Source: a virus (Duplodnaviria > Heunggongvirae > Uroviricota > Caudoviricetes). Taken from it: a DNA stretch of 35,370 nucleotides. Numbering within the stretch: the stretch's first letter is position 1; each line of letters begins with the position of its first letter. Shown piece after piece: positions 3,216 to 35,370 of this stretch. The DNA lies in IMG/VR virus record IMGVR_UViG_2778261227_000014; one strand, given 5' to 3'. Below the pieces are notes generated by a model, which searched no databases, was not told where the DNA came from, and worked only from the letters and a program-made list of their open reading frames with translations. The translations under genes and the position numbers were made by a program.

Positions 3216-3530
3216 ATGACCAAAGACCATGCACAAGGTGTATTTATCCGTTTTATTGATTTTCGCGGTGAACTGTTATTACGTGCATCCGCTATTGACG
3301 GAGTGACTCCGGCGGGTAAAAACGGAGCCGACGAAGCCACTTACGTTTATCTGAACGGCACGCGCTGCTTGTGGAACTTCCGTACCAGACCGTACGAGAA
3401 ATCATTAGCGAAGCTGAAAAGGCACGCCATGTTAATGGCGATGAACCCTATATCGAAATTATTTGTATGGATTCAGAAGCTGAAATACAGAAAGCAGATT
3501 AAAGGGCGTTGTGATGGGCAAAGAATATAA
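3216..3530 (+). CDS. Hypothetical early protein
   Basis: ATG at 3216 with caggtg upstream; 104 aa; the track ORF 3102-3530 trimmed to the first ATG with an RBS. Confidence 0.45.
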   Translation: MTKDHAQGVFIRFIDFRGELLLRASAIDGVTPAGKNGADEATYVYLNGTRCLWNFRTRPYEKSLAKLKRHAMLMAMNPISKLFVWIQKLKYRKQIKGRCDGQRI

Positions 3531-3756
3531 AACTCTCATTAACAAAGCACTTGAGCGTTTTTATTTTCGCTTAAGTGCATCAGGCGCTCATGCTGAACGT
3601 GCGGCCCGTGACTCATTGACCAGAGCAATCCGAAGTCTGTATGACGTGGCTTTTTATGCTGATGATCTGGATGCACTTAACGAACTTTCCGAGCTGATCT
3701 GTGCCGCAGAATGCGGGGAACATATTGAACCGTATAAGCTGGGAAATATCGCATGA
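3514..3756 (+). CDS. Hypothetical early protein
   Basis: ORF in the early operon; GTG at 3511 and ATG at 3514 are both possible starts; overlaps the previous gene end. Confidence 0.45.
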   Translation: MGKEYKTLINKALERFYFRLSASGAHAERAARDSLTRAIRSLYDVAFYADDLDALNELSELICAAECGEHIEPYKLGNIA

Positions 3757-3890
3757 GTATATTTATCTCATGGCTTGTTCTGATTATTTCGGTGGTCTGC
3801 GCCATTGGGATTATGCGAATTATTAATTCAGTGAAAAAGATCGAGCGTTTTTCTCTGATGAATAACGATACAAATAAAGCATCAAATTAA
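3753..3890 (+). CDS. Small hydrophobic protein (45 aa), single predicted TM helix
   Basis: ATGA start/stop overlap with the upstream gene at 3753-3756; translation MSIFISWLVLIISVVCAIGIMRIINSVKK...; too short for the ORF track. Confidence 0.35.
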   Translation: MSIFISWLVLIISVVCAIGIMRIINSVKKIERFSLMNNDTNKASN

Positions 3891-3958
3891 ATAAGAAAAC
3901 GTGAAAACCATCCGTATTAACGGAGGTATTCGCACACGCAAATAACGGAGATACAAAA

Positions 3959-5485: not shown

Positions 5486-5547
5486 CGCTTGCCAGCGCTC
5501 GTTGAGTCGGGTTACATTTCCGCTGCACCTCATAAAACGGGTGCCGG

Positions 5548-5733
5548 GATTCTCAACCCGCTGACTACACACGCGCACAACCGCGCCAGCGGTTTTTTTG
5601 TGCGTACTGTATTGCCACGTCTTATTCGCGTCAGAATTATGGCGGGGCGTACGGGGCCGACTTCGGTCGGGCCGGGATCGTGTGTAGCCGGTGTTGAGAA
5701 CCCCGTACGTCTCGCCACCCCGAGATTCTCAAC
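5548..5733. repeat. Three copies of the GATTCTCAAC motif (two direct, one inverted) around a GC-rich stem-loop region
   Basis: gattctcaac at 5548-5557 and 5724-5733; inverted copy gttgagaa at 5693-5700; cgtacgggg (5648-5656) complementary to ccccgtacg (5701-5709), enclosing the ccgac-ttcg-gtcgg hairpin at 5657-5670. Confidence 0.5.
5578..5599 (+). terminator. Candidate intrinsic terminator inside the early region
   Basis: aaccgc-gcca-gcggtt hairpin followed by T7 (ggtttttttg) on the + strand. Confidence 0.45.
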
Positions 5734-6453: not shown

Positions 6454-9276
6454 ATGACGGCAGAGTACATCAGGGACTGGCAACAACCGCGCCACGCAGT
6501 GGGGTGTGAAGGAACGGGGATCCCCGCTCCTGAATCCGCGCTTTCCTCCTGGCTGGATGCCTACCGGGCTGAGAACGAGCGCCGCCAGGAAATGGCTGAT
6601 GCGGCGTTCTCCGCCACACCGCTGGGCAACCTGATTAATAAAAGCCTGGACGCACAGGAAAAACAGGACAAAACCATCACACTGGCAGGAGACGCCAGAA
6701 AACAGGCACGCGGCGCGGTGGATGAAGCCATGGCCTCGCTGCGCCTGCTGCCGTCCTATCTGCGCGATCCGCTTATTCGCCACCTCTCCTTCCTGCGCAA
6801 AAAACAGGAAGCCGATCGCCGGAAAGGCAAAAAGAGCTGGCAGGCGGAACGCTATGCACGCGGACCCCTGCGCAAAATATTCGAACGTCTGGATAGCACT
6901 GACGGACGCTGGCTGACACCGGGTTATCGCTCCCTTGCCGGACGCGAACGCCTGGACGATTTGCTTTACCTGCCGCAGCTCAACAAACACCAGATACAGA
7001 CGCTGGCCACCATGACGGCGGCGATGTTCAGCAGCACCTTCGAAAAACTCTGCGATGGCTTTGGCGCGACCGATGGCGAGCTGACCATGGATGTAACCCT
7101 GAAGGCGTATCAGATGCTGGCCCGCATGGCGTTACACCTGCACGCCATGCCTCCACATTATGACGCACTGACGACAGACAAAGACCGGAGGAACGAACCG
7201 GACACGGAGCTGCTGCCGGGCGCAATCCTTCGCCTGACCTGTGCGGAATGGTGGAAACGCAAACTGTGGCTGTTACGTTGCGAGTGGAGAGAAGAACAAC
7301 TCCGCGCCGCCTGTCTGGTTTCCAGAAAAACATCACCCTATCTGAGCCAGGACGCGTTAAGCGAGTTTCGCGCACAGCGCGAGAAAACACGCGATTTCCT
7401 GAAAAGTTTCATGCTGGAAAATGAAGACGGGTTCACGATTGATCTCGAGACAGTGTATTACGCGGGAGTAAGTAACCCGGTTCACCGTAAGGCAGAAATG
7501 ATGGCCACCATGAAGGGGCTGGAACTTCTGGCCGAAGCCCGTGGCGACAAAGCGGTGTTTCTGACTGTCACCTGCCCGTCAAAATACCACGCCACAACAG
7601 AGAACGGTCATCCGAATCCCAAATGGAACGGGGCCACCATGCGCGACTCCAGCGATTACCTGGTTAACACGTTTTTTGCAGCGGTCCGCAAGAAACTGAA
7701 CCGCAACGGCCTGCGCTGGTATGGCATCCGCACGGTGGAGCCTCACCATGACGGCACCGTGCACTGGCATATGATGGTCTTTGCTCATCCGGAAGAAATC
7801 GACACCATTGTGTCCCACACCCGCGATATTGCCATTCAGGAAGATCGTCACGAGCTGGGTGATGATATTACCCCACGCTTTAAGGCAGAGTACGTCGACG
7901 GTTCGAAAGGTACGCCGACCAGCTACATCGCCACCTACATCGGAAAGAACCTGGACAGCCGCGCCGTGGGTGGCATTGACCCGAAAACAAGCAAGCCACG
8001 CGTTGATCACGAAACCGGAAAATCAATGGCCGAGAGCGTGGAACGCGCCATCGGCTGGGCGCGCCTTCACCGCGTCCGCCAGTTCCAGTTCTTTGGTATC
8101 CCCTCCCGTCAGGTATGGCGTGAACTCCGCCGCCTTGCCAGTCAGATGGCCCGCAACCCGGAAGGTCCACAACGTCTGGAAAATGACGCAATGGATGCGG
8201 TACTCGCTGCCGCTGATGCCGGGTGTTTTGCCACCTACATTGAGAAACAGGGTGGCGTACTTGTTCCACGCAAGGATTACCTGATTCGCACCGCCTACGA
8301 CCTCGCAGAAGAGCTGAACGATTACGGCGAGCAAAGCGTACAGATTTACGGGATCTGGTCGCCACAAATCGGGGAATCTTCCCGCGTGTGCACGCACCCG
8401 GATAACTGGAAGCTGGTAAGACGTAAACCGGAAGCGGAAGACAGCGCCCGCGAAAATGGTTTTGACCTTCAGGGCGGCCCTGCCGCCCCTTGGACTCGTG
8501 GCAATAACTGTCCCCGTGTACAGGAAACGGACAACAACGGGACAGAACAGCCGGAAGAACGGCCAGCACCGTGGCCGCAGCTCCCTGACGGCGTTGAAGT
8601 GAACGAATGGATGCGCTCACTGAAACGGCACGAACGCCGGGCGCTGATGCGTTCGCTTCGTGACAAACAGGCAAAAAACAGCAGTGATGAAATGCAGAGC
8701 TGGACACAGAGCCGCAAACAGCAGCGGCCTTTGCCTGATAACCACGAATTACTCGCTAAAGAATGGCGGGAGTCTGCTGAATCTCTCGGCCTGCATATCG
8801 GTGAACAGCAGATGCAGCACCTGTTACGGGGCGGCAGTCTGTACGTTGACGGCAGCATCATTGCACCGCAGGGATTTGAAATTGTACGCAAACCGGATAC
8901 CCGACCGGACAGCCGGATCACGCAGCTCTGGCAGCGCCTGAGCCGTAACCACGGCGTAAGCAGCACGGAGATCCGCCATAACCCGGTCGCCAGCTATCTG
9001 GAACAGCTGGGGGCATCAGACCCCGAAGCCGCCGCACGCCTGGCATCCACACTTCAGCAAGACCAGAACACCATGAAAACACCCGTTACCGTGCTTTCTG
9101 ACATGCTGCGCGCCATCCGCGACGCAGAGCACGCACAGAGAATCAGTGAAACCACTGAACGCGCCCGCCGCAAAGCAGACCTGCTGCGGGGTGGCCTGAC
9201 CATTGGAAACAAAAAACAGACAGAAACGGGATTCACAAATCCCGTAAATGAGCAAAAAACGCGCCGCGATATATGA
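6454..9276 (+). CDS. A: Rolling-circle replication initiator, P2 gpA-like endonuclease
   Basis: 940 aa. HUH-type metal motif GTVHWHMMVFAH and paired active-site tyrosines YIATYIGKN (Y-x3-Y), as in P2 A / phiX174 A-type initiators; position after the early genes. Overlapping - strand ORFs (7880-8707 and others) are treated as high-GC artefacts. Confidence 0.85.
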   Translation: MTAEYIRDWQQPRHAVGCEGTGIPAPESALSSWLDAYRAENERRQEMADAAFSATPLGNLINKSLDAQEKQDKTITLAGDARKQARGAVDEAMASLRLLPSYLRDPLIRHLSFLRKKQEADRRKGKKSWQAERYARGPLRKIFERLDSTDGRWLTPGYRSLAGRERLDDLLYLPQLNKHQIQTLATMTAAMFSSTFEKLCDGFGATDGELTMDVTLKAYQMLARMALHLHAMPPHYDALTTDKDRRNEPDTELLPGAILRLTCAEWWKRKLWLLRCEWREEQLRAACLVSRKTSPYLSQDALSEFRAQREKTRDFLKSFMLENEDGFTIDLETVYYAGVSNPVHRKAEMMATMKGLELLAEARGDKAVFLTVTCPSKYHATTENGHPNPKWNGATMRDSSDYLVNTFFAAVRKKLNRNGLRWYGIRTVEPHHDGTVHWHMMVFAHPEEIDTIVSHTRDIAIQEDRHELGDDITPRFKAEYVDGSKGTPTSYIATYIGKNLDSRAVGGIDPKTSKPRVDHETGKSMAESVERAIGWARLHRVRQFQFFGIPSRQVWRELRRLASQMARNPEGPQRLENDAMDAVLAAADAGCFATYIEKQGGVLVPRKDYLIRTAYDLAEELNDYGEQSVQIYGIWSPQIGESSRVCTHPDNWKLVRRKPEAEDSARENGFDLQGGPAAPWTRGNNCPRVQETDNNGTEQPEERPAPWPQLPDGVEVNEWMRSLKRHERRALMRSLRDKQAKNSSDEMQSWTQSRKQQRPLPDNHELLAKEWRESAESLGLHIGEQQMQHLLRGGSLYVDGSIIAPQGFEIVRKPDTRPDSRITQLWQRLSRNHGVSSTEIRHNPVASYLEQLGASDPEAAARLASTLQQDQNTMKTPVTVLSDMLRAIRDAEHAQRISETTERARRKADLLRGGLTIGNKKQTETGFTNPVNEQKTRRDI

Positions 9277-9352: not shown

Positions 9353-10312
9353 ATGAAAATTTGTATCGATGACGGCTCCACCAACATCAAGCTGGCATGG
9401 ACTGAGAACGGCGAACGCCGCAACGCCATCAGCCCGAACAGCTTCAAGTCGGAATGGTCTGCGCCGTTCGGTGGCACGCAGCCCGCGAACTACATGCTTG
9501 ATGGCGTGCGCTATGGTTTTGATCCGGTCAGCGATCGCTTTGTCCAGACGACCGACACGCAATACCAGTACAGCGATGTGAATGTCATTGCCATTCATCA
9601 CGCGCTGGTCAAATCAGGCATCACACCACAGGAAGTGGATGTGGTTGTCACCCTGCCACTGAGCGAATATTTCGACACAAACGCACAGCCGGACATGGCC
9701 AACATCAACCGCAAAAAAGCAAACGTCATGCGTCCGGTGGCGTACCAGAACGGAAAAGCATTCACTATCCGTAACGTACGGGTTATGCCTGAATCCATTC
9801 CGGCTGGTTTTAAAGCACTGGCTGACATGAGTCCGTTTGAATCCCTGCTGATTGTGGATTTAGGCGGAACCACGCTGGATGTGGCAAAGGTTCAGGGACA
9901 ACTGGCGGGTATCAGCCAGGTGTTTTGCGATCCACACGTAGGCGTTTCCCTGATGGCCGATGCCGTACTGTCGGTGATGGCCACTAACGGTATGCGCACC
10001 AGTCACCACATCGCCAATACCATTATCGAACATCGCCATGATGAAGCCTGGCTGCGCCAGCACATCCACAATGACGCGCATTACGCCAGCCTGATGGCGG
10101 TTATTCGTGAAAAGGAAGAAACACTGAAACAACGCGTGATCCGCGCGCTGGCGGTTTTTTCGGGTTACGGGCGGGTGATGGTTGTCGGTGGCGGGGCGGA
10201 GATTGTGGCACCCGCTATCCGCGAAGCCTGCGGAGTTAATGCGACTTTCATCGCGGACGGGGTGCCACAATTTGCTCTGGTTAATGGGCTGTACGCAATG
10301 AACAAGGAGTAA
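9353..10312 (+). CDS. parM: ParM/StbA-like actin-type segregation ATPase
   Basis: 319 aa; N-terminal MKICIDDGSTNIKLAW closely matches plasmid R1 ParM (MLVFIDDGSTNIKLQW, from memory); further shared blocks YSDVNVIAIHHAL, VMPESIPAG, LLIVDLGGTTLD, GVSL, FSGY, VMVVGGGAEI, LVNGLY. AGGA RBS 8 nt upstream. Confidence 0.8.
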   Translation: MKICIDDGSTNIKLAWTENGERRNAISPNSFKSEWSAPFGGTQPANYMLDGVRYGFDPVSDRFVQTTDTQYQYSDVNVIAIHHALVKSGITPQEVDVVVTLPLSEYFDTNAQPDMANINRKKANVMRPVAYQNGKAFTIRNVRVMPESIPAGFKALADMSPFESLLIVDLGGTTLDVAKVQGQLAGISQVFCDPHVGVSLMADAVLSVMATNGMRTSHHIANTIIEHRHDEAWLRQHIHNDAHYASLMAVIREKEETLKQRVIRALAVFSGYGRVMVVGGGAEIVAPAIREACGVNATFIADGVPQFALVNGLYAMNKE

Positions 10313-10316
10313 ACCA

Positions 10317-10628
10317 ATGACGACACCAACCAGAAGAATAAGTTTCTATCTGAAGCCAGCTGCCGTCAAGAACGAAGGAGAAGCATGCGCCTGGCTGGAC
10401 AGCCTTACACCAGAAGCCCGCAAAAGCGGCCAACGCGTGGCTTTTCTGGCCGGGCTGGCACTTCTGAAGACGAATCCGGCAGAGGCTTACCGACTGGCCG
10501 CATGGGCTGATGATGAGATGTTACCTGTGACACAAATCAGCTCAAAAAAGTTTGAAGCACAGTCTGCACCAGTGGCTAAGATAACCAGCCAGATGGCTGG
10601 GAATATCCGGGCGTTATTTCCTGAGTAA
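10317..10628 (+). CDS. parR: ParR/StbB-like DNA-binding adaptor protein
   Basis: 103 aa directly downstream of the parM-like gene; ISFYLKP, AFLAGLALLKTNPAEAY and IRALFPE parallel R1 ParR (IAFKLNP, AALTAGLALYRQDP, LRSLFPKE, from memory); AGGAG RBS. Confidence 0.65.
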   Translation: MTTPTRRISFYLKPAAVKNEGEACAWLDSLTPEARKSGQRVAFLAGLALLKTNPAEAYRLAAWADDEMLPVTQISSKKFEAQSAPVAKITSQMAGNIRALFPE

Positions 10629-10642
10629 AAGCATCTGCGCGA

Positions 10643-10684
10643 AAAATGCTCACGTTTATAGAGAAAATGCTCACGTTTATAGAG
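10643..10684. repeat. Perfect tandem duplication of a 21-bp unit just downstream of the parR-like gene
   Basis: aaaatgctcacgtttatagag at 10643-10663 repeated at 10664-10684. Confidence 0.7.
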
Positions 10685-10777
10685 ACAGTATCATTCCATT
10701 TGGCACACTTACTTCAATAATCGATCTGTTAAACAAATAGATTGTCTATTATCTATCGATTAAAACGATCAATTATC

Positions 10778-10806
10778 TTGACAGTAATGTGCCTTTTTGT
10801 AAGATC
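10778..10806 (+). promoter_or_regulatory. Candidate sigma70 promoter
   Basis: Perfect TTGACA at 10778-10783, 16-17 bp spacer, TAAGAT at 10800-10805; points toward the 11014 gene. Confidence 0.4.
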
Positions 10807-10856
10807 GTTCGCATTGTGAGCGACAAGATAATTGCGCGGCATTGTCCATGCAAAAC

Positions 10857-10882
10857 GCCCCAATAGCAGCAACTATTGGGGC
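10857..10882 (+). other. 10-bp-stem hairpin (possible 5'UTR structure or binding site)
   Basis: gccccaatag-cagcaa-ctattggggc, perfect inverted repeat. Confidence 0.4.
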
Positions 10883-11013
10883 GTAAAACTCGGTCGGACT
10901 CACTTAACCTGATATGCGTGCCTTCCGAAGTAAATCAAAATGTGCGTCGTATATTTTATTGCTTACACGCACCTCTGTAAAGGCACGCATATTTTTCCTA
11001 TGAGGTAAATAAA

Positions 11014-11283
11014 GTGCGGGCTAAAACAGGTATTTGCAAGAACCCTCATCGTTATAATCCAACATTTCTGTCTCTCCCTGAATATCAAGGACAAGAAGGT
11101 CGGCACAAATGCGCTGCCTGTGCTTTTGAGCTAGGCATAAAAGATGCGCTTGAAGGACGCGCTATGGCTCAGAATGATTTAGTTTTAGCTAACATTCCGT
11201 TTAGCCAGGCTGGAACTGTAAGGCACAGAGATGCCTATGAAGCATATGTTCGTGGTTGGCGATTAATACACAGCAACAATTGA
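11014..11283 (+). CDS. Small hypothetical protein with Cys/His cluster
   Basis: 89 aa from GTG at 11014 with GAGG 8 nt upstream; CKNPHRYNP...HKCAACAF; flanked by its own promoter-like region and a downstream terminator. Confidence 0.45.
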   Translation: MRAKTGICKNPHRYNPTFLSLPEYQGQEGRHKCAACAFELGIKDALEGRAMAQNDLVLANIPFSQAGTVRHRDAYEAYVRGWRLIHSNN

Positions 11284-11291
11284 TACTTTTG

Positions 11292-11316
11292 AAGCGCCGA
11301 TAAGGCGCTTTTTTTG
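11292..11316 (+). terminator. Rho-independent terminator
   Basis: agcgcc-gataa-ggcgct hairpin followed by T7 directly after the 11283 stop. Confidence 0.7.
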
Positions 11317-11707
11317 TTTGCACGATAGTGCACAAGTTTGCACAATTTTTTTGAACGACTTTTTGTACTTCCGGCCCGCGTGGTGGCTGGATCCGTCAAG
11401 GATCCGTACGTGCACAAAAAAACGCGTTTTTTCTGCGCGCAGGTGACGGGGGAACAGCCCGCGTTTCAGGGGGTAAATAGCATTCCCTGAACGATGTCGC
11501 AGAGATACAACAGAATGGCTGTATTTCTCACGCTGAGCGTGAAAAAGACGTGAGGGCTTTTGATTTAGGTAAGGCCGTCAAAATCGCACTGAGACGGCGA
11601 GAACATGCAGTCAACGCGGTGGGATTGCGTAAGAGTCTGACTGTCGATGATGGCAATCAGCAGAAAAGCATCGTGAAATTATCTGACTGATACAGGAGCT
11701 GGAGAGT

Positions 11708-11732
11708 CGGGGCATAAATTTTTTATGCCCCG
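11708..11732. other. Hairpin adjacent to the portal gene stop
   Basis: cggggcata-aattttt-tatgccccg at 11708-11732, 27 bp beyond the Q stop; no clean T-run on either side. Confidence 0.35.
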
Positions 11733-11758
11733 GCGAAGCAGCAGACAAGCGAAGCGCG

Positions 11759-24948: not shown

Positions 24949-25547
24949 TGGCATTCAGAATGAGTGAACAACCACGAACCATAAAAATTTATAATCTGCT
25001 GGTCGGAACCAATGAATTTATTGGTGAAGGTGATGCATACATTCCACCTCATACAGGTCTACCTGCAAATAGTACTGATATTGCTCCGCCAGATATTCCA
25101 GCTGGCTTCGTGGCTATTTTCAACAGTGATGAGGCATCGTGGCATCTTGTTGAAGACCATCGGGGTAAAACAGTTTATGACGTGGCATCAGGGGACGCGT
25201 TATTTATTTCTGAACTCGGCTCATTACCGGAAAATGTCACTTGGTTATCCCCGGAAGGGGAGTTTCAGAAGTGGAACGGCACAACGTGGGTGAAAGATGC
25301 AGAAGCAGAAAAAGTGTTCCGGATACGGGAGGCGGAAGAAACAAAAAACAGCCTCATGCAGGTAGCCAGTGAGCATATTTCGCCACTTCAAGATGCCGTA
25401 GATTTGAATATTGCAACAGAGGAAGAAACATCGTTACTGGTGGCATGGAAGAAGTATCGAGTGCTGCTGAACCGTGTTGATACATCAAGAGCACCGGATA
25501 TTGAGTGGCCAGCTTCCCCAGTGGAATCAAGGAGTAAACAAGCATAA
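24948..25547 (+). CDS. G: Tail fibre assembly chaperone, P2 gpG-like
   Basis: 199 aa immediately after H (TAATG overlap). Confidence 0.8.
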
Positions 25548-25641
25548 AGGCTTTCATTTCAAACCATTGTAGTACAGTTTTTTGTATAGTACCCTGCTCA
25601 TTTCGGATGACATGTGTGATTTGGAATTTCAGGGTACCATT

Positions 25642-26820
25642 ATGAATGTTATTTCATCATTAAAACAGCTTAACAGACAGCGAAATATTAAAACAAAAAA
25701 GATAAAGACGAAGGCCAGACTGGCATTTCTAAAAATGCGATACAGAAGGAAAACATCATTACAGCCGAATAGTTATAAAACAGTGTGCATTTTCATGCAC
25801 ATGCAAGCCATTGGTGACGGCATCGTTACCTCAGGGTTTATTAAACAACTTCAAAAATCCGGTATGGTGGTATATGTGATAGCACCTTCAAGAGTATCAT
25901 TCCTCTTTACTGATATTGTTGGCGTGGATGCCTTTATATCTTACGAGAAAAATAAATTTAACGAACTAAAAGCAAAGATAAAAAAACTGAATGTAGATCT
26001 TGTTGTTGACTTCTCAAATTTTGATAACACAGCGATAACCAGATTGCAAACACTACATTTACTTAGACCTAAACACTCTATCTGTTTTAATCATCCTGCC
26101 GTAACTATTTTTGATACAAATATAATCGATAATCGTTCCATTCACACATCTGAAAGAATGAAAAAAGTTTTATCTTTACTAAAGATAAAAAATAATAATT
26201 ATGCTGCAGCACTTAATTTTGACAACAAAACATATGAACCAGCAAATATTGTTGCAAATGAATTCAGGAAGAAAAACAAAAAATTAGTTATATTTAACCC
26301 TTATGGCTCTCAGAATAGCAGAACCTTATCTGATGAACAGATAAACAAAGTACTAGCTTACCTTAATAACCTTAAGGGATATCACACAATAGTTTTTAAT
26401 ATGGGAAAACAGATTAATCACAATGGATTGGATAATGTGTCTCTATCTCCATTTTCTGATGCCGGATGTTCATTTGCATTGGTTCGCCATGCTGATTTTG
26501 TTATAACTGTAGATACTGCCATTGTACATTTAGCCAGTGCATTAAACATTAGACAATACTGTATATATAATAACAGAATGCATGAAGGAAAATTCGAAAA
26601 TAATATTGTGTGGGGGCCAAACAGCAAATTAGCGACTCAACTCACCACATCCGAACATCTAAGGTCTGAAGGGGGCGACGATATGCATAAATTCGACATA
26701 ATGATCTTAATTAATGCTATCAAACAAGATTTGACAAACGATATACCGAATTACCACTCGGATTTAGGTTGTAAAAATAGATCCAGAAACCCAGAATTAG
26801 AAAGTAGCAATTCTTTATAA
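25642..26820 (+). CDS. Glycosyltransferase family 9-like (heptosyltransferase-like) moron; start uncertain (ATG 25612 or 25642; the track start 25582 is TTG)
   Basis: Strongly AT-rich versus flanking phage genes; N-terminal VCIFMHMQAIGDGIVTSGFIKQL resembles the GT9 ILVIRLxAIGDxxxTxP box, and C-terminal FVITVDTAIVHLASALNIRQY resembles the GT9 NDSGPMHLAAAL box. Sits at the P2 Z/fun position. Confidence 0.55.
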   Translation: MNVISSLKQLNRQRNIKTKKIKTKARLAFLKMRYRRKTSLQPNSYKTVCIFMHMQAIGDGIVTSGFIKQLQKSGMVVYVIAPSRVSFLFTDIVGVDAFISYEKNKFNELKAKIKKLNVDLVVDFSNFDNTAITRLQTLHLLRPKHSICFNHPAVTIFDTNIIDNRSIHTSERMKKVLSLLKIKNNNYAAALNFDNKTYEPANIVANEFRKKNKKLVIFNPYGSQNSRTLSDEQINKVLAYLNNLKGYHTIVFNMGKQINHNGLDNVSLSPFSDAGCSFALVRHADFVITVDTAIVHLASALNIRQYCIYNNRMHEGKFENNIVWGPNSKLATQLTTSEHLRSEGGDDMHKFDIMILINAIKQDLTNDIPNYHSDLGCKNRSRNPELESSNSL

Positions 26821-32659: not shown

Positions 32660-33769
32660 ATGACCGACACCACCATGCAATTGCTCAGTCAGGGCACAGA
32701 CCCCGTGAAAATGCCGGATTTTGATATTCTCGCGGAGGGTAAAACGCTGTCAGGAGTGGCAGAGCGCCTGATGAGCCTGTCACTGACCGACAACCGGGGA
32801 TTTGAGGCGGACCAGCTCACCATCACGCTGGATGATGCGGATGGTCAGTTGCAGCTACCGCCACGGGGCGCGCGCCTGACGGTTCTCATTGGCTGGAAAG
32901 GAGAACCGCTGACAGAAAAAGGCACTTACATTGTTGATGAAATCGCTCACGAAGGACCGCCGGACAGGCTGACTGTTTCAGCCAGAAGCGCAGATTTTCG
33001 GGATGAATTTAACGTTAAACGTGAGGTGTCCTGGCATGATGTGACCATTGAGCGTGTGGTATCCGCCATCGCTCATCGGTATGGTCTGAAACCGCAAATC
33101 AGCGAAATGCTGATGGATATCGAAATCGACCACGCCGACCAGACCGAAGAAAGCGACATGTCCTTCCTTACGCGCATGGCGGAAATGCTGGGCGCAATCA
33201 CCACGGTAAAAAGCGGTAATCTGTTATTCATCATGCCAGGCGGTGGCGTGAACGCACAGGGCCAGCCGTTGCCCTCGTTCGCCATCACGCGCAGCAGTGG
33301 CGATCGCCATCAGTTCCGCATTGCTGACCGCGAAGCGTATACGGGGGTACGCGCTTACTGGCTTGATCTTAATTACGGGAAAAAGAAAAAAGTCAGCGTG
33401 AAACGCCGCAAACCGCCAAAACCCAAAAAGGAGAAAAGCAGCAGCCGTGAAGGTGATTATATGGAAGGCGCAGAAGGCAATGTGTTTGTGTTACGCAAGA
33501 CTTATCAGAACGAGCAGGCAGCAAGACGCGCAGCGGCGGCAAAGTGGCAGCAGCTACAACGCGGAGCCGCAGCGTTCTCCATCACACTGGCACGTGGACG
33601 CGCAGAACTCTACCCCGAAATGCATGGCACGGTAACAGGATTTAAAAGCGAAATTGATAATCAGGACTGGATTATTGCAAAAGCCGAGCACACCATTGAT
33701 AACAGTGGCTTTACCACGCAGCTTGAGCTTGAAGCCAAAATCCCGGAATGGATAGCAGAAACAGAGTAA
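32660..33769 (+). CDS. D: Tail protein, P2 gpD-like
   Basis: ATG at 32660 with GGGAGGGA upstream; 369 aa; N-terminus MTDTTMQLLSQGTDP... and size match P2 D. Confidence 0.85.
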   Translation: MTDTTMQLLSQGTDPVKMPDFDILAEGKTLSGVAERLMSLSLTDNRGFEADQLTITLDDADGQLQLPPRGARLTVLIGWKGEPLTEKGTYIVDEIAHEGPPDRLTVSARSADFRDEFNVKREVSWHDVTIERVVSAIAHRYGLKPQISEMLMDIEIDHADQTEESDMSFLTRMAEMLGAITTVKSGNLLFIMPGGGVNAQGQPLPSFAITRSSGDRHQFRIADREAYTGVRAYWLDLNYGKKKKVSVKRRKPPKPKKEKSSSREGDYMEGAEGNVFVLRKTYQNEQAARRAAAAKWQQLQRGAAAFSITLARGRAELYPEMHGTVTGFKSEIDNQDWIIAKAEHTIDNSGFTTQLELEAKIPEWIAETE

Positions 33770-33963
33770 ACAACTTAGATGCATTAGCCCTGACATTTGC
33801 TAACGCGCTTACAGCAAGAATCATAACCAATCTGACAGCCTACCCGGTGTCAAAATCAGAAGAGCCTTACATTAGAATATGTTAATTTGTAGCAAACAAA
33901 TTTACACACAAATGATTACTGCTGAAATAGCCCCCATAAATACCATGTCAAAGGATCCATGTT

Positions 33964-34629
33964 ATGAATATGCAAATTTTTATCGCACCAGCAGCCACAG
34001 TTGCTGCAGTCTGCCTTGCTGCATATTTTGCTTTACGAAATGAACGTAAAAAGAAAGCACTTGAGATTAGAACAACTCAACTAGATCGAATATCAGAGCT
34101 AGTAAACCGAGCATCTACCAATTTGATGCAATATACAGGTACTCTTGCCTCTATACTGGAAGCGCACGCCAAAGATAATTATCTACCGAACAAAAAATTT
34201 GACATTAATGTAATTAGCAAATGGAAAGATTGCCTCGATGAGAGTGAGGTCTGGGCGATTGATAGACAGCAACTAAGAACATGTCAGCACAGTCTGGAGT
34301 TTCATCGTGAAAAAGAATGGGCTGAATGGAAAAAAATAATTCCACCATTACTTGATAAAATTGACCAATTTTTTCTCATATCTAAGCCAGGGCAACCTGT
34401 TACGTTTATAAATGGCCAAAACAAAACAGCTGATGAACTACTTGTTTTCTCAAGATATTTGAGAAAACAAACAGCAGAAATTGAATCAGTACGTCAGCTG
34501 TTACTTTCTCAAATGAGAGAGGAATTCATCGAGTTAACTAGCTTTGAACCTGTCACAATGTTTAGCTTATTTAAATCAATAAAGAAAAATGTCATGCAAT
34601 TTTTCTGTATCAGTGCTCTTAAAAATTGA
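33964..34629 (+). CDS. AT-rich moron: protein with N-terminal TM helix, function unknown
   Basis: 221 aa, AAGGA RBS 8 nt upstream; N-terminal MNMQIFIAPAATVAAVCLAAYFAL is hydrophobic; composition distinct from flanking phage genes; followed by a terminator. Confidence 0.6.
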   Translation: MNMQIFIAPAATVAAVCLAAYFALRNERKKKALEIRTTQLDRISELVNRASTNLMQYTGTLASILEAHAKDNYLPNKKFDINVISKWKDCLDESEVWAIDRQQLRTCQHSLEFHREKEWAEWKKIIPPLLDKIDQFFLISKPGQPVTFINGQNKTADELLVFSRYLRKQTAEIESVRQLLLSQMREEFIELTSFEPVTMFSLFKSIKKNVMQFFCISALKN

Positions 34630-34644
34630 CGCTCTGTTGCAAGC

Positions 34645-34674
34645 AACCCCAGTGTTAAACTGGGGTTATTCTTG
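34645..34674 (+). terminator. Rho-independent terminator after the moron
   Basis: aaccccag-tgttaaa-ctggggtt hairpin followed by the T-rich attcttg. Confidence 0.55.
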
Positions 34675-34778
34675 CTAAGAGACCTTTCTACGGCATCAGT
34701 AAACAAAACGAACTATCAGTTGGAGTCTGAGCAAGTTCAGCCTAAACTAGCGACAGCACTACGTTAAGGGAGGTCGCT

Positions 34779-35039
34779 ATGTTCCGTTGTCCGCTTTGTG
34801 GCGCATCTGCCCGTATCCGCACCAGTCGTCCGGAAAATGATTCAAACACCGTGCGGCAAAAGTATTACCAGTGTAACAACCTGGAATGCGGCGTATGCTT
34901 CTCAACACTGGAAGCTTTCCATAAATTCACATCGAAACACGCCTCCGGCATCCACTCTTCAGAAGATATCCCGTGGCATGAGCTGCCAGCTTCACACAGG
35001 GGAAACAATCAGATGAGCTTGCCTTTACCTCAGAATTAA
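34779..35039 (+). CDS. ogr: Late gene transcriptional activator, Ogr/Delta-type zinc-finger protein
   Basis: MFRCPLCGASARIRTSR...YYQCNNLECGVCF matches the Ogr C2C2 zinc-finger pattern (P2 Ogr MFHCPLC...RTSR...YHQC.N..C, from memory); GGGAGG RBS. Confidence 0.8.
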   Translation: MFRCPLCGASARIRTSRPENDSNTVRQKYYQCNNLECGVCFSTLEAFHKFTSKHASGIHSSEDIPWHELPASHRGNNQMSLPLPQN

Positions 35040-35099: not shown

Positions 35100-35312
35100 A
35101 TGGTCGGAGGGAATACCCGAAGGCCAGATGTGGAAAGGCCCCGGAAAACATCTCTGTTTAACCGAGGCCCTAACCGCATTACCTTGACAAGTGAAAGGTT
35201 AGCGCCTCTCCGGAAAAGGAGCAAGTGCTATGTCGCAAAAATCGCTTACGGCCATCACGTTCTGCGTGACGGCAATCCTCATCATCTGGATGTTGCACGG
35301 TTCGCTGTGTGA
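35100..35312 (+). CDS. Possible mok-like reading frame overlapping the hok-like gene
   Basis: 70-aa ORF overlapping the hok-like start in another frame, as in hok/mok loci; weak evidence. Confidence 0.3.
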   Translation: MVGGNTRRPDVERPRKTSLFNRGPNRITLTSERLAPLRKRSKCYVAKIAYGHHVLRDGNPHHLDVARFAV

Positions 35313-35370
35313 AATACGGATGAGCTTCTGGGGAGCGGAGTTTGCGGCGTTCTTACAGTGTAAGCAGTAA
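35230..35370 (+). CDS. hok: Hok/Gef-family type I toxin (small membrane peptide)
   Basis: 46 aa MSQKSLTAITFCVTAILIIWMLHGSLCEIRMSFWGAEFAAFLQCKQ: TM helix followed by the SLCEIR signature and AAF motif typical of Hok/Gef; GGAG RBS; the stop codon is the last 3 nt of the window. Confidence 0.7.
   Translation: MSQKSLTAITFCVTAILIIWMLHGSLCEIRMSFWGAEFAAFLQCKQ

What the first reader, a model, noticed from the sequence alone, without database searches (positions are those of the whole stretch)
33770..34778. AT-rich membrane-protein moron between D and ogr
A 221-aa protein with one N-terminal TM helix and a charged, helix-rich body is inserted between tail gene D and ogr, which are adjacent in P2. It has its own RBS and terminator and a much lower GC content than its neighbours. 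This is typical of horizontally acquired prophage cargo such as defence or exclusion functions.
Basis: partly seen in the sequence, partly recalled or inferred. Interest (0 to 1): 0.55.

Follow-up and report, generated by a model that had tools for sequence, protein, structure and literature searches.

The report
Orphan membrane protein in prophage hotspot
A real but uncharacterised 221-residue inner-membrane protein sits as swappable cargo between tail gene D and ogr of a P88/P2-like E. coli prophage, at a site where related prophages carry known anti-phage genes, so it is a reasonable but unproven candidate for a new phage-exclusion gene.

Summary
Window 33780-34747 is a 968-bp AT-rich insert (GC 0.376 against 0.52). 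It carries one gene, 33964-34629 (+), 221 aa, with an RBS and a strong terminator hairpin. P88 and other Xuanwuvirus phages lack the insert, and there D and ogr are 38 bp apart.

The gene is under purifying selection (dN/dS 0.24). It belongs to a small family of about 23 clusters at 50% identity, all Enterobacterales, about 215-235 aa. The family has no match in Pfam, NCBIfam, PHROGs, PADLOC or PDB sequences. The AlphaFold model (pLDDT 80) shows an N-terminal transmembrane helix, N-out/C-in, continuing into a generic helical bundle with no significant fold neighbour.

D-ogr is a single-cassette hotspot. About 720 of 5,426 E. coli genomes have it empty and 57 carry this gene. Others carry GmrSD, a GAPS6-like pair, PDC-S31/DUF2971, PIN, a weak HEPN-like match, DUF3800 and ParA-like genes.

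Family members always occur as solo genes in mobile elements. These include P2-like and lambdoid prophages, plasmids, ICEs, and islands with CBASS, TIR or KAP NTPase genes.

The most likely function is membrane-based phage exclusion. This rests on context and architecture only, with no experiment. It is a new candidate within a known kind of locus, of moderate interest.

The parts
32660..33769 (+). Tail/baseplate gene D (about 369 aa from the MTDTTMQ start), left anchor of the hotspot. Its last ~25 nt plus 'CAACTTAGA' form the left copy of the imperfect direct repeat that flanks the cassettes.
   Evidence: Pfam Phage_GPD 1.2e-16. 369-aa gene call in L037. Repeat seen.
33780..34747 (+). AT-rich cargo cassette, 968 bp, absent from P88 and Shae_phiSM.
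   Evidence: BLAST junctions against the empty sites. GC 0.376 against 0.52.
33780..33794 (+). Conserved left cassette end TGCATTAGCCCTGAC (consensus TGYATTARCTCAAAC). It is shared by cassettes with unrelated cargo and is also present 187 nt upstream of the Kluyvera lambdoid-prophage copy.
33822..33963 (+). 142-nt upstream region that travels with the gene (77% identical in the Kluyvera lambdoid prophage). It includes the perfectly conserved block GAATATGTTAATTTGT (33875-33890), a -10-like TAGAAT (33873-33878) and the AAGGA RBS (33951-33955). It is a candidate promoter/operator, not established.
33964..34629 (+). Cargo gene, 221 aa (identical to the product annotated WP_001057122.1, 'hypothetical protein', in the 100%-identical E. 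coli O55:H7 CB9615 locus). TM helix residues 5-24, basic juxtamembrane motif LRNExxKKxLE, cytoplasmic helical bundle, C-terminal amphipathic helix about residues 199-219.
34645..34667 (+). Intrinsic-terminator-like hairpin (9-bp G+C-rich stem, extended pairing 34632-34681) followed by AUUCUUGCU.
34711..34748 (+). Conserved right cassette end. It holds TTGGAG (34720-34725), a 17-nt spacer and TAAACT (34743-34748; TAGAAT in most other cassettes). This is the probable ogr promoter, kept whatever the cargo, and an imperfect repeat of the D 3' end.
   Evidence: Alignment of right ends of 8 cassettes with unrelated cargo. The promoter assignment is an inference.
34779..35039 (+). ogr/delta-like zinc-finger late activator (86 aa), right anchor of the hotspot.
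   Evidence: Pfam Ogr_Delta 5.1e-14. RefSeq annotation.

Best explanation
The interval is one cassette of a single-gene cargo hotspot that lies between tail gene D and ogr in P88-like (Xuanwuvirus) prophages. The cassette encodes a bitopic inner-membrane protein. It has a very short periplasmic N-terminus, one transmembrane helix, and about 195 cytoplasmic residues that form a helical bundle on a long stalk continuous with the TM helix.

I propose that the lysogen expresses it as a phage-exclusion factor acting at the cytoplasmic face of the inner membrane. The cytoplasmic bundle would recognise an incoming-phage component or an infection-induced change. The conserved face of the TM helix, possibly with the C-terminal amphipathic helix, would then act in one of two ways. 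It could self-associate and compromise the membrane (abortive infection). Or it could bind a host inner-membrane protein that superinfecting phages need for DNA entry (superinfection exclusion).

Shown here: the gene is real and under selection, its topology and fold class, its cassette nature, hotspot turnover, its solo mobility among mobile elements, and its neighbourhood of defence genes. Inferred: expression in the lysogen, any anti-phage activity, and the effector mechanism.
For: Real gene: dN/dS is 0.24 against the Kluyvera copy and 0.48 against a 90%-identical copy. There are 23 cluster representatives at 50% identity, all about 215-235 aa.

Cargo: the site is empty in P88, Shae_phiSM, Chuche, PhiR44_2 and P884B11. 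About 720 genomes have an empty junction and 57 carry this gene, out of 5,426 E. coli genomes.

Hotspot character: the same junction carries a GmrSD_N restriction-type protein. It also carries a GapS6a-family protein plus a 930-aa partner; GAPS6 is experimentally validated in bioRxiv 10.1101/2023.03.28.534373. Further cargoes are DUF2971 = PADLOC PDC-S31 at 4.8e-27, PIN_4, a weak sub-threshold HEPN RiboL-PSP match, DUF3800, a SEC-C protein and a ParA-like ATPase, and an hxsABCD cluster.

Family context: members are always solo genes in mobile elements. Two are lambdoid prophages. Several are Rep3 or ParA plasmids. Two are ICEs. One is an ssrA-integrated island with a KAP NTPase. Two lie about 0.5 kb from SMODS+S_4TM CBASS, beside TIR, KAP NTPase, RES and nSTAND genes. 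A KAP NTPase or its 362-aa partner recurs in three contexts.

Architecture: one TM helix with the positive-inside rule giving N-out/C-in. The model has pLDDT 79.8 and all five models lie between 74.8 and 79.8. The TM and juxtamembrane segment is the most conserved part (entropy 1.2-1.3 against 2.0-2.5 bits). Conservation has helical periodicity, 0.163 against 0.063 +/- 0.031 in shuffles, p about 0.002. This argues that the membrane helix makes a specific contact and is not a passive anchor.
Confidence: 0.42

Rival explanations
1. It is lysogenic-conversion cargo with a host-fitness function unrelated to phages. Examples would be envelope-stress tolerance, modulation of a host membrane complex such as a protease, transporter or the divisome, or a colonisation or virulence trait.
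For: P2-like hotspots hold non-defence cargo, including partition systems and cytolethal distending toxin (PMC9122126). This window has ParM/StbB and a GT9-like glycosyltransferase in its other variable sites. Some family members sit beside non-defence genes: HipA and an autotransporter, tra genes, and a colicin. A conserved TM face fits binding to a host membrane protein.
Against: Nothing points to any specific such function. The recognisable cargoes at this exact site are mostly nuclease-type or defence-type. The family is rare and patchy, in about 1% of E. coli genomes and 8 of 72,556 plasmids. That distribution is more typical of conflict genes than of generally useful traits.
Confidence: 0.27
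2. It is a selfish addiction, toxin-like or anti-competitor element of mobile elements. It could be a membrane-active toxin whose control element lies in the conserved 142-nt leader, or an anti-defence or anti-plasmid factor.
For: It occurs across phages, plasmids and ICEs. It lies adjacent to other addiction modules: hok/gef in the window, and HipA, RES and YdaT/YdaS elsewhere. The upstream leader is conserved and contains a perfectly conserved 16-nt block. The gene is occasionally inactivated by frameshift or IS1.
Against: No cognate antitoxin ORF or Rfam RNA is present in the cassette. No recurrent partner gene was found in 11 contexts. The gene is stably maintained at >=99% identity in 50 genomes.
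Confidence: 0.13
3. It serves the phage's own lytic cycle, for example as a lysis regulator (holin, antiholin or spanin-like), a tail-assembly factor, or a modulator of late transcription, given its position between D and ogr.
For: It lies on the same strand as D and ogr and could be read from the late D transcript. It is a small membrane protein.
Against: It is absent from viable relatives (P88, Shae_phiSM, Chuche, PhiR44_2) and from about 63% of the E. coli genomes that hold this junction. Unrelated genes replace it in either orientation. Homologues occur on plasmids and ICEs that have no lysis or tail genes. There is no PHROG or Pfam holin or spanin match. It lies outside the lysis cassette.
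Confidence: 0.05
4. It is a spurious or decaying ORF in AT-rich junk DNA.
For: AT-rich DNA gives long ORFs by chance. The gene has no family annotation.
Against: dN/dS is 0.24 over 221 codons with dS of 0.67. There are 23+ divergent full-length homologues with invariant P9, A20, L24, K30, K31, H114 and W122. A confident structure model was obtained. An RBS and a terminator are present.
Confidence: 0.02

Closest known systems
Variable cargo hotspots of P2-like prophages. These are gpA-gpQ (old/tin) from Rousset et al. 2022 (PMC9122126), Z/fun from Vassallo et al. [quoted passage not shown]
   Same: It is a small locus between two conserved phage genes with high turnover of AT-rich cargo. The cargo includes validated and candidate anti-phage genes. 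Most cargo is unannotated.
   Different: The site is the D-ogr junction of P88-like Xuanwuvirus prophages. It is not one of the two experimentally mined P2 hotspots; 'ogr' occurs in neither paper. It may correspond to the briefly mentioned third hotspot. Here most cassettes seen were one gene; exceptions are the GAPS6-like pair and the four-gene hxs cluster. Cassettes are bounded by conserved ends that form an imperfect direct repeat and include the probable ogr promoter.
Membrane-anchored single-gene abortive-infection and exclusion proteins. From my own knowledge these include Lactococcus AbiP (N-terminal TM, cytosolic bulk), the HK97 gp15 moron, T4 Imm and P22 SieA.
   Same: It is a solo gene encoded by a prophage or other mobile element. 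It is a bitopic or small inner-membrane protein with no enzymatic domain. Like HK97 gp15, it sits at the end of the tail-gene region.
   Different: No sequence or fold similarity was detected to any PADLOC, PHROG or Pfam model. The comparison is by architecture only. No phenotype is known.
Four-helix-bundle sensor domains of chemoreceptors and histidine kinases (4HB_MCP, NarX/NarQ, Tar/Tsr ligand-binding domains).

Membership tests
Prophage moron / hotspot cargo cassette | Located between two conserved phage genes that are adjacent in close relatives. | tested here: met
   D and ogr are 38 bp apart in P88 and Shae_phiSM. The insert is window 33780-34747. About 720 E. coli genomes have the empty junction.
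Prophage moron / hotspot cargo cassette | Alternative, unrelated genes at the same junction in related elements. | tested here: met
   PIN_4, DUF3800, SEC-C, ParA-like, DUF2971/PDC-S31, two hypotheticals, GmrSD, hxsABCD and GapS6a plus partner.
Prophage moron / hotspot cargo cassette | Composition foreign to the phage backbone. | tested here: met
   GC 0.376 against 0.52. GC3 0.28 against 0.58.
Prophage moron / hotspot cargo cassette | Autonomous transcription unit with its own promoter and terminator. | tested here: inconclusive
   The terminator hairpin is strong (-26.7 kcal/mol, z -5.65). No good sigma-70 consensus was found; there is only a conserved upstream block with TAGAAT. RNA data are needed.
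Known anti-phage defence systems (PADLOC-DB v2) | Significant match to a defence-protein HMM. | tested here: not met
   Best E is 0.023 (REase_II, 33 residues) for the query. No model is better than 0.013 over 25 family members.
Known anti-phage defence systems (functional definition) | Reduces phage plating or propagation when expressed. | not testable with these tools
   Requires plaque and liquid-infection assays.
Holins / lysis membrane proteins | Match to a holin or spanin family and location in the lysis cassette. | tested here: not met
   There is no Pfam or PHROG match. The gene lies between D and ogr, away from the lysis genes, and is absent from viable relatives.
4HB_MCP-type sensor domain | Periplasmic four-helix bundle between two TM helices, detectable by profile. 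| tested here: not met
Hok/Gef or other type I toxins | Small (about 50 aa) TM peptide with antisense RNA control. | tested here: not met
   The protein is 221 aa and there is no Rfam hit in the cassette. The true hok/gef gene is a separate ORF at 35230-35370.

The most novel reading that the evidence does not exclude
The 221-aa protein founds a new single-gene, membrane-anchored anti-phage family that has no recognisable enzymatic or nucleotide-binding domain. Its effector is the conserved face of its own transmembrane helix. It moves as a roughly 0.8-kb promoter-plus-gene unit between the cargo hotspots of P2-like and lambdoid prophages, plasmids and ICEs. The D-ogr junction would then be a third, cassette-style defence hotspot of P2-like prophages. 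It would be bounded by direct repeats that regenerate the ogr promoter, and it could be mined in about 1,100 E. coli genomes.
Probability: 0.33. Interest if true: 0.6.

Novelty: new variant of a known kind. Interest (0 to 1): 0.42.

Why it matters
If the protein excludes phages, it adds a minimal defence type: one bitopic membrane protein with no known domain. No HMM catalogue searched here recognises it. The D-ogr junction would also become a compact, easily anchored hotspot, mostly one cassette per prophage, occupied in a few hundred E. coli genomes. Validated systems (GmrSD-type, GAPS6-like) already sit there beside several unannotated genes, so the site is a ready list of candidates for functional screening. 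The conserved cassette ends also suggest how cargo is swapped without losing ogr expression. If the protein has no anti-phage activity, it remains an ordinary orphan moron of limited interest.

Tried and rejected
- **Sequence families.** Pfam, NCBIfam, PHROGs and PADLOC found nothing significant, either for the protein or for 25 family members scanned individually.
- **PDB sequence searches.** The single sequence gave no hit at E <= 10, and the 25-sequence profile gave nothing below E = 0.26.
- **Word-indexed homologue search.** The single sequence found only 7 clusters. The exhaustive HMMER search was needed to reach the wider family.
- **The search for related loci.** The 16-sequence alignment failed because it had no conserved stretch. 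The 6-sequence alignment found one species representative, Pantoea, in GTDB genomes, and only near-identical E. coli copies in IMG/VR.
- **Partner genes and paralogues.** None was found in 11 contexts. The only recurrences were a plasmid tyrosine recombinase, one shared CBASS module and KAP NTPase-type neighbours.
- **Cassette-end motifs near distant family members.** They were absent except in the close Kluyvera copy, so the motifs belong to the phage locus and not to the gene family.
- **Sigma-70 promoter scan.** There was no match at 9 of 12 or better upstream of the gene on the + strand.
- **Rfam.** There was no hit in the cassette.
- **Literature.** The accession does not appear in any searched paper. 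No paper was found that describes a D-ogr hotspot by name.
- **Colicin-immunity role.** I considered this because of the Kluyvera neighbour. I rejected it because a separate 100-aa gene in the usual opposite orientation is the likely immunity gene, and the other contexts have no colicin.

Full report
**1. What is in the sequence**

The window's right end is the right arm of a P88-like (Xuanwuvirus, Peduoviridae) prophage of E. coli integrated beside ihfA. The 1,009-bp interval is 100% identical to E. coli O55:H7 CB9615.

Gene D (Pfam Phage_GPD, 1.2e-16) ends at 33769 and ogr (Ogr_Delta, 5.1e-14) starts at 34779. A hok/gef gene follows at 35230-35370. Unlike P2 proper, D lies on the opposite strand to the sheath/tube/tape-measure genes.

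Between D and ogr lies one ORF, 33964-34629 (+), 221 aa. RefSeq annotates it as 'hypothetical protein' WP_001057122.1. It has:
- an AAGGA RBS 8 nt upstream of the ATG;
- a strong hairpin at 34645-34667, -26.7 kcal/mol within 34630-34685, z = -5.65.

BLAST against phages P88 and Shae_phiSM, where the D stop and the ogr ATG are 38 bp apart, sets the insert at 33780-34747, 968 bp. Its GC is 0.376 against 0.522 for the window. That makes it the second most AT-rich island of the window, and 3% of equal-sized windows are as low.

**2. The gene is real**

Against a 73%-identical copy in Kluyvera the ORF has dS = 0.67 and dN/dS = 0.24.

A word-indexed search of 5.8 billion proteins found only seven clusters, from E. 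coli and Kluyvera. An exhaustive HMMER profile search of 1.84 billion representatives found 23, 17 of them below 1e-10. Nearly all full-length members are 214-235 aa. A second profile search named sources only in Enterobacterales: Klebsiella, Citrobacter, Salmonella, Pseudescherichia, Kluyvera and Pantoea. All are annotated 'hypothetical'.

Invariant residues in a 27-sequence non-redundant set are P9, A20, L24, K30, K31, H114 and W122. T12, N26 and E34 are above 90%.

**3. What the protein looks like**

Residues 5-24 form the only hydrophobic segment (Kyte-Doolittle 2.11). No charged residue precedes it, and six K/R follow within 16 residues. The positive-inside rule therefore puts the N-terminus outside and about 195 residues in the cytoplasm.

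AlphaFold2 with a 25-sequence alignment gives pLDDT 79.8, and all five models lie between 74.8 and 79.8. The model has these elements:
- one continuous helix, residues 3-71, comprising the TM segment and a stalk;
- helices 81-93, 101-114, 116-137 and 156-192 packed into a bundle;
- a tiny two-stranded bridge (78-80 with 153-155);
- a disordered loop (138-152);
- a lower-confidence amphipathic C-terminal helix (199-219).

The most conserved part is the TM helix plus the juxtamembrane motif LRNExxKKxLE. Its mean column entropy is 1.2-1.3 bits against 2.0-2.5 elsewhere. Conservation follows helical periodicity, 0.163 against 0.063 +/- 0.031 in shuffles, with 0.2% of shuffles as high. One face of the membrane helix (P9, T12, V16, A20, L24) is therefore under constraint. 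I read this as a specific intramembrane contact, either self-association or a partner protein. That reading is an inference.

**4. The locus is a cassette hotspot**

A 2.8-kb query spanning D to hok matched 1,638 of 5,426 complete E. coli genomes, and 57 carry this cassette. A 180-bp probe across the empty P88 junction is contiguous in 720 genomes and matches in 1,138. So roughly 63% of junctions are empty, about 5% hold this gene and the rest hold something else.

Cargoes read at the same junction:

| Cargo | Size | Evidence |
|---|---|---|
| PIN_4 protein | 500 aa | Pfam 4.5e-08 |
| DUF3800 protein | 389 aa | Pfam 3.5e-10 |
| SEC-C-motif protein | 379 aa | Pfam 2e-08 |
| ParA-like ATPase | 352 aa | Pfam AAA_31 8.8e-30 |
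| DUF2971 protein | 261 aa | PADLOC candidate PDC-S31, 4.8e-27 |
| Hypothetical | 384 aa | none |
| Hypothetical, phage 500465-2 | 340 aa | weak HEPN RiboL-PSP, below the Pfam cut-off |
| GmrSD_N restriction-type protein | 527 aa | Pfam 2.1e-13 |
| hxsABCD radical-SAM cluster | 4 genes | RefSeq annotation |
| GapS6a-family protein plus partner | 106 aa + 930 aa | RefSeq annotation |

GAPS6 is an experimentally validated two-gene anti-phage system (bioRxiv 10.1101/2023.03.28.534373). All cassettes checked are AT-rich (0.34-0.42) and most are single genes, in either orientation.

The cassettes share conserved ends despite unrelated cargo:
- The left end reads ...ACTTAGA | TGYATTARCTCAAAC.
- The right end reads ...CNGTTGGAGTCTGAGC-N4-ACAACTTAGAA | TAGCG.
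- The right end is an imperfect direct repeat of the 3' end of D (ACAGAGTGAGCAACTTAGA), and the empty site has a single copy.

The two best-conserved blocks of the right end are TTGGAG and TAGAAT, 17 nt apart. In this window they are TTGGAG at 34720-34725 and TAAACT at 34743-34748. I infer that this is the ogr promoter, retained by every cassette, with the cargo's terminator upstream insulating it. Either recombination between the repeats or homologous exchange through D and ogr would explain gain, loss and swapping.

The two P2 hotspots mined experimentally so far are gpA-gpQ (Rousset 2022, PMC9122126) and Z/fun (Vassallo 2022, PMC9519451). Neither paper mentions ogr. [quoted passage not shown] That may be this region.

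**5. Where the family lives**

Every member examined is a solo gene with 130-575-bp spacers and different neighbours.

| Host | Element and neighbours |
|---|---|
| E. coli (85%-identical copy) | Same D-ogr site, in a prophage integrated at serS |
| Kluyvera | Lambdoid prophage, between the replication genes and rusA/Q, on the opposite strand, beside a colicin-like gene |
| Citrobacter braakii | Lambdoid prophage, after the replication gene |
| K. aerogenes, Citrobacter, Pantoea and others | Rep3 or ParA plasmids, next to a tyrosine recombinase |
| Not named by the source (Logan run assembly) | ICE, after hipA |
| Salmonella | Inside the tra region of an ICE |
| K. aerogenes | ssrA-integrated island with a KAP NTPase |
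| Pseudescherichia (chromosome) | About 0.5 kb upstream of SMODS+S_4TM CBASS, beside an nSTAND ATPase |
| K. michiganensis (a contig; the same 114,072-bp record appears in the plasmid collection) | About 0.5 kb upstream of SMODS+S_4TM CBASS, beside TIR, KAP NTPase and RES |

The two CBASS modules are about 90% identical, so those two contexts count as one event. No partner gene or paralogue recurs.

The Kluyvera copy shares DNA with the window from 33822 to 34636 (77%). That span is 142 nt of leader plus the ORF, and the copy even keeps the left-end motif at -187. The unit has therefore moved between phage types. A 16-nt block in the leader (33875-33890) is perfectly conserved and may be regulatory.

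The family is rare. It occurs in about 1% of E. coli genomes, in 8 of 72,556 plasmids, and in one deposited phage genome, where it is frameshifted.

**6. Interpretation**

It is firmly established that this is horizontally acquired, dispensable cargo in a hotspot. The function is not established.

The best-supported reading is phage exclusion acting at the inner membrane (confidence about 0.42). It rests on four points:
- The site demonstrably hosts defence genes.
- The family's solo, nomadic distribution includes defence neighbourhoods.
- The architecture resembles single-gene membrane Abi/Sie proteins, which is a comparison from my own knowledge and not a tested homology.
- The constraint on the TM helix suggests that the membrane segment is functional.

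Whether it would kill the cell (Abi) or block DNA entry (Sie) cannot be decided here.

The rivals are:
- a phage-unrelated fitness function (0.27);
- a selfish toxin, addiction or anti-competitor role (0.13);
- a role in the phage's own lytic cycle (0.05), contradicted by its absence from viable relatives and its presence on plasmids;
- a spurious ORF (0.02), refuted by the selection and conservation data.

**7. Novelty and score**

The kind of thing, a moron in a P2-like prophage hotspot, is well known. The protein family is uncharacterised and absent from every library searched. The D-ogr junction has not been exploited, and its cassette anatomy, with direct repeats that carry the ogr promoter, appears undescribed in the literature I could search. 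I rate it a new variant of a known kind, interest 0.42. It is a good, cheap candidate for a plaque-assay screen, but it is not surprising to a specialist until a phenotype is shown.

Noticed in passing
window 34711-34748; also L002, L031, L033-L037 right junctions: All cassettes at the D-ogr site, whatever their cargo or orientation, keep a ~45-bp right end with TTGGAG-N17-TAGAAT (TAAACT in this window). It is an imperfect direct repeat of the 3' end of D plus CAACTTAGA. This is probably the ogr promoter and the substrate for cassette gain and loss. Empty sites have one copy.
   Followed up: partly
L043 8521-10104; L044 8329-11726; L045 8381-11499: The same D-ogr junction holds other cargo in three E. 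coli genomes. O145 RM9873 has a GmrSD_N-domain restriction-type protein. ETEC1738 has an hxsABCD His-Xaa-Ser radical-SAM cluster. O169:H41 has a GapS6a-family protein with a 930-aa partner, which looks like GAPS6.
   Followed up: partly
window 35230-35370: A Hok/Gef-family toxin gene lies at the prophage end, just downstream of ogr. It is conserved in all relatives whatever the D-ogr cargo. The ORF ends exactly at the last base of the window (35370). RefSeq annotates the identical 141-bp gene in CB9615.
   Followed up: no
window 9353-10628: ParM/StbA-type actin-like ATPase (Pfam 6.9e-82) plus a StbB-like plasmid-stability protein. They lie downstream of a 940-aa ORF (6454-9276) that I took, without testing, to be the replication gene, and upstream of the capsid genes. 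This corresponds to the classical gpA-gpQ hotspot position. An AT-rich stretch with no long ORF follows at about 10630-11750.
   Followed up: partly
window 25582-26820: A 412-aa ORF (TTG start) with a weak glycosyltransferase family 9 (heptosyltransferase) match. It lies in the lowest-GC island of the window (0.318), right after the tail-fibre assembly gene, which is the Z/fun-equivalent hotspot position. It could be LPS-modifying lysogenic-conversion cargo.
   Followed up: no
window 5525-5599, 5635-5722, 25291-25489: Rfam gathering-score hits: isrK Hfq-binding RNA, C4 antisense RNA (a P1/P7-type immunity RNA), and 'IS009' overlapping the tail-fibre assembly gene.
   Followed up: no
L018 3077-4652 (Kluyvera lambdoid prophage): A 408-aa protein with a pore-forming colicin domain is followed by a 100-aa gene on the opposite strand, which is likely its immunity gene. 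Both lie in the same prophage cargo region, just upstream of the family member.
   Followed up: no
L001 3530-3928 (phage 520873); E. coli AR_0128 and AR_0118 (H31, H32): The 221-aa gene is truncated in Escherichia phage 520873. There, RefSeq annotates only a 132-aa ORF (3530-3928), tblastn of the 221-aa protein splits into two places per record with none covering at least 80% of the query, and the database holds a 124-aa product from this record. In two E. coli genomes an IS1A lies within the 1,009-bp D-ogr interval that holds the gene. The gene therefore seems to be lost occasionally by mutation as well as by cassette deletion.
   Followed up: partly
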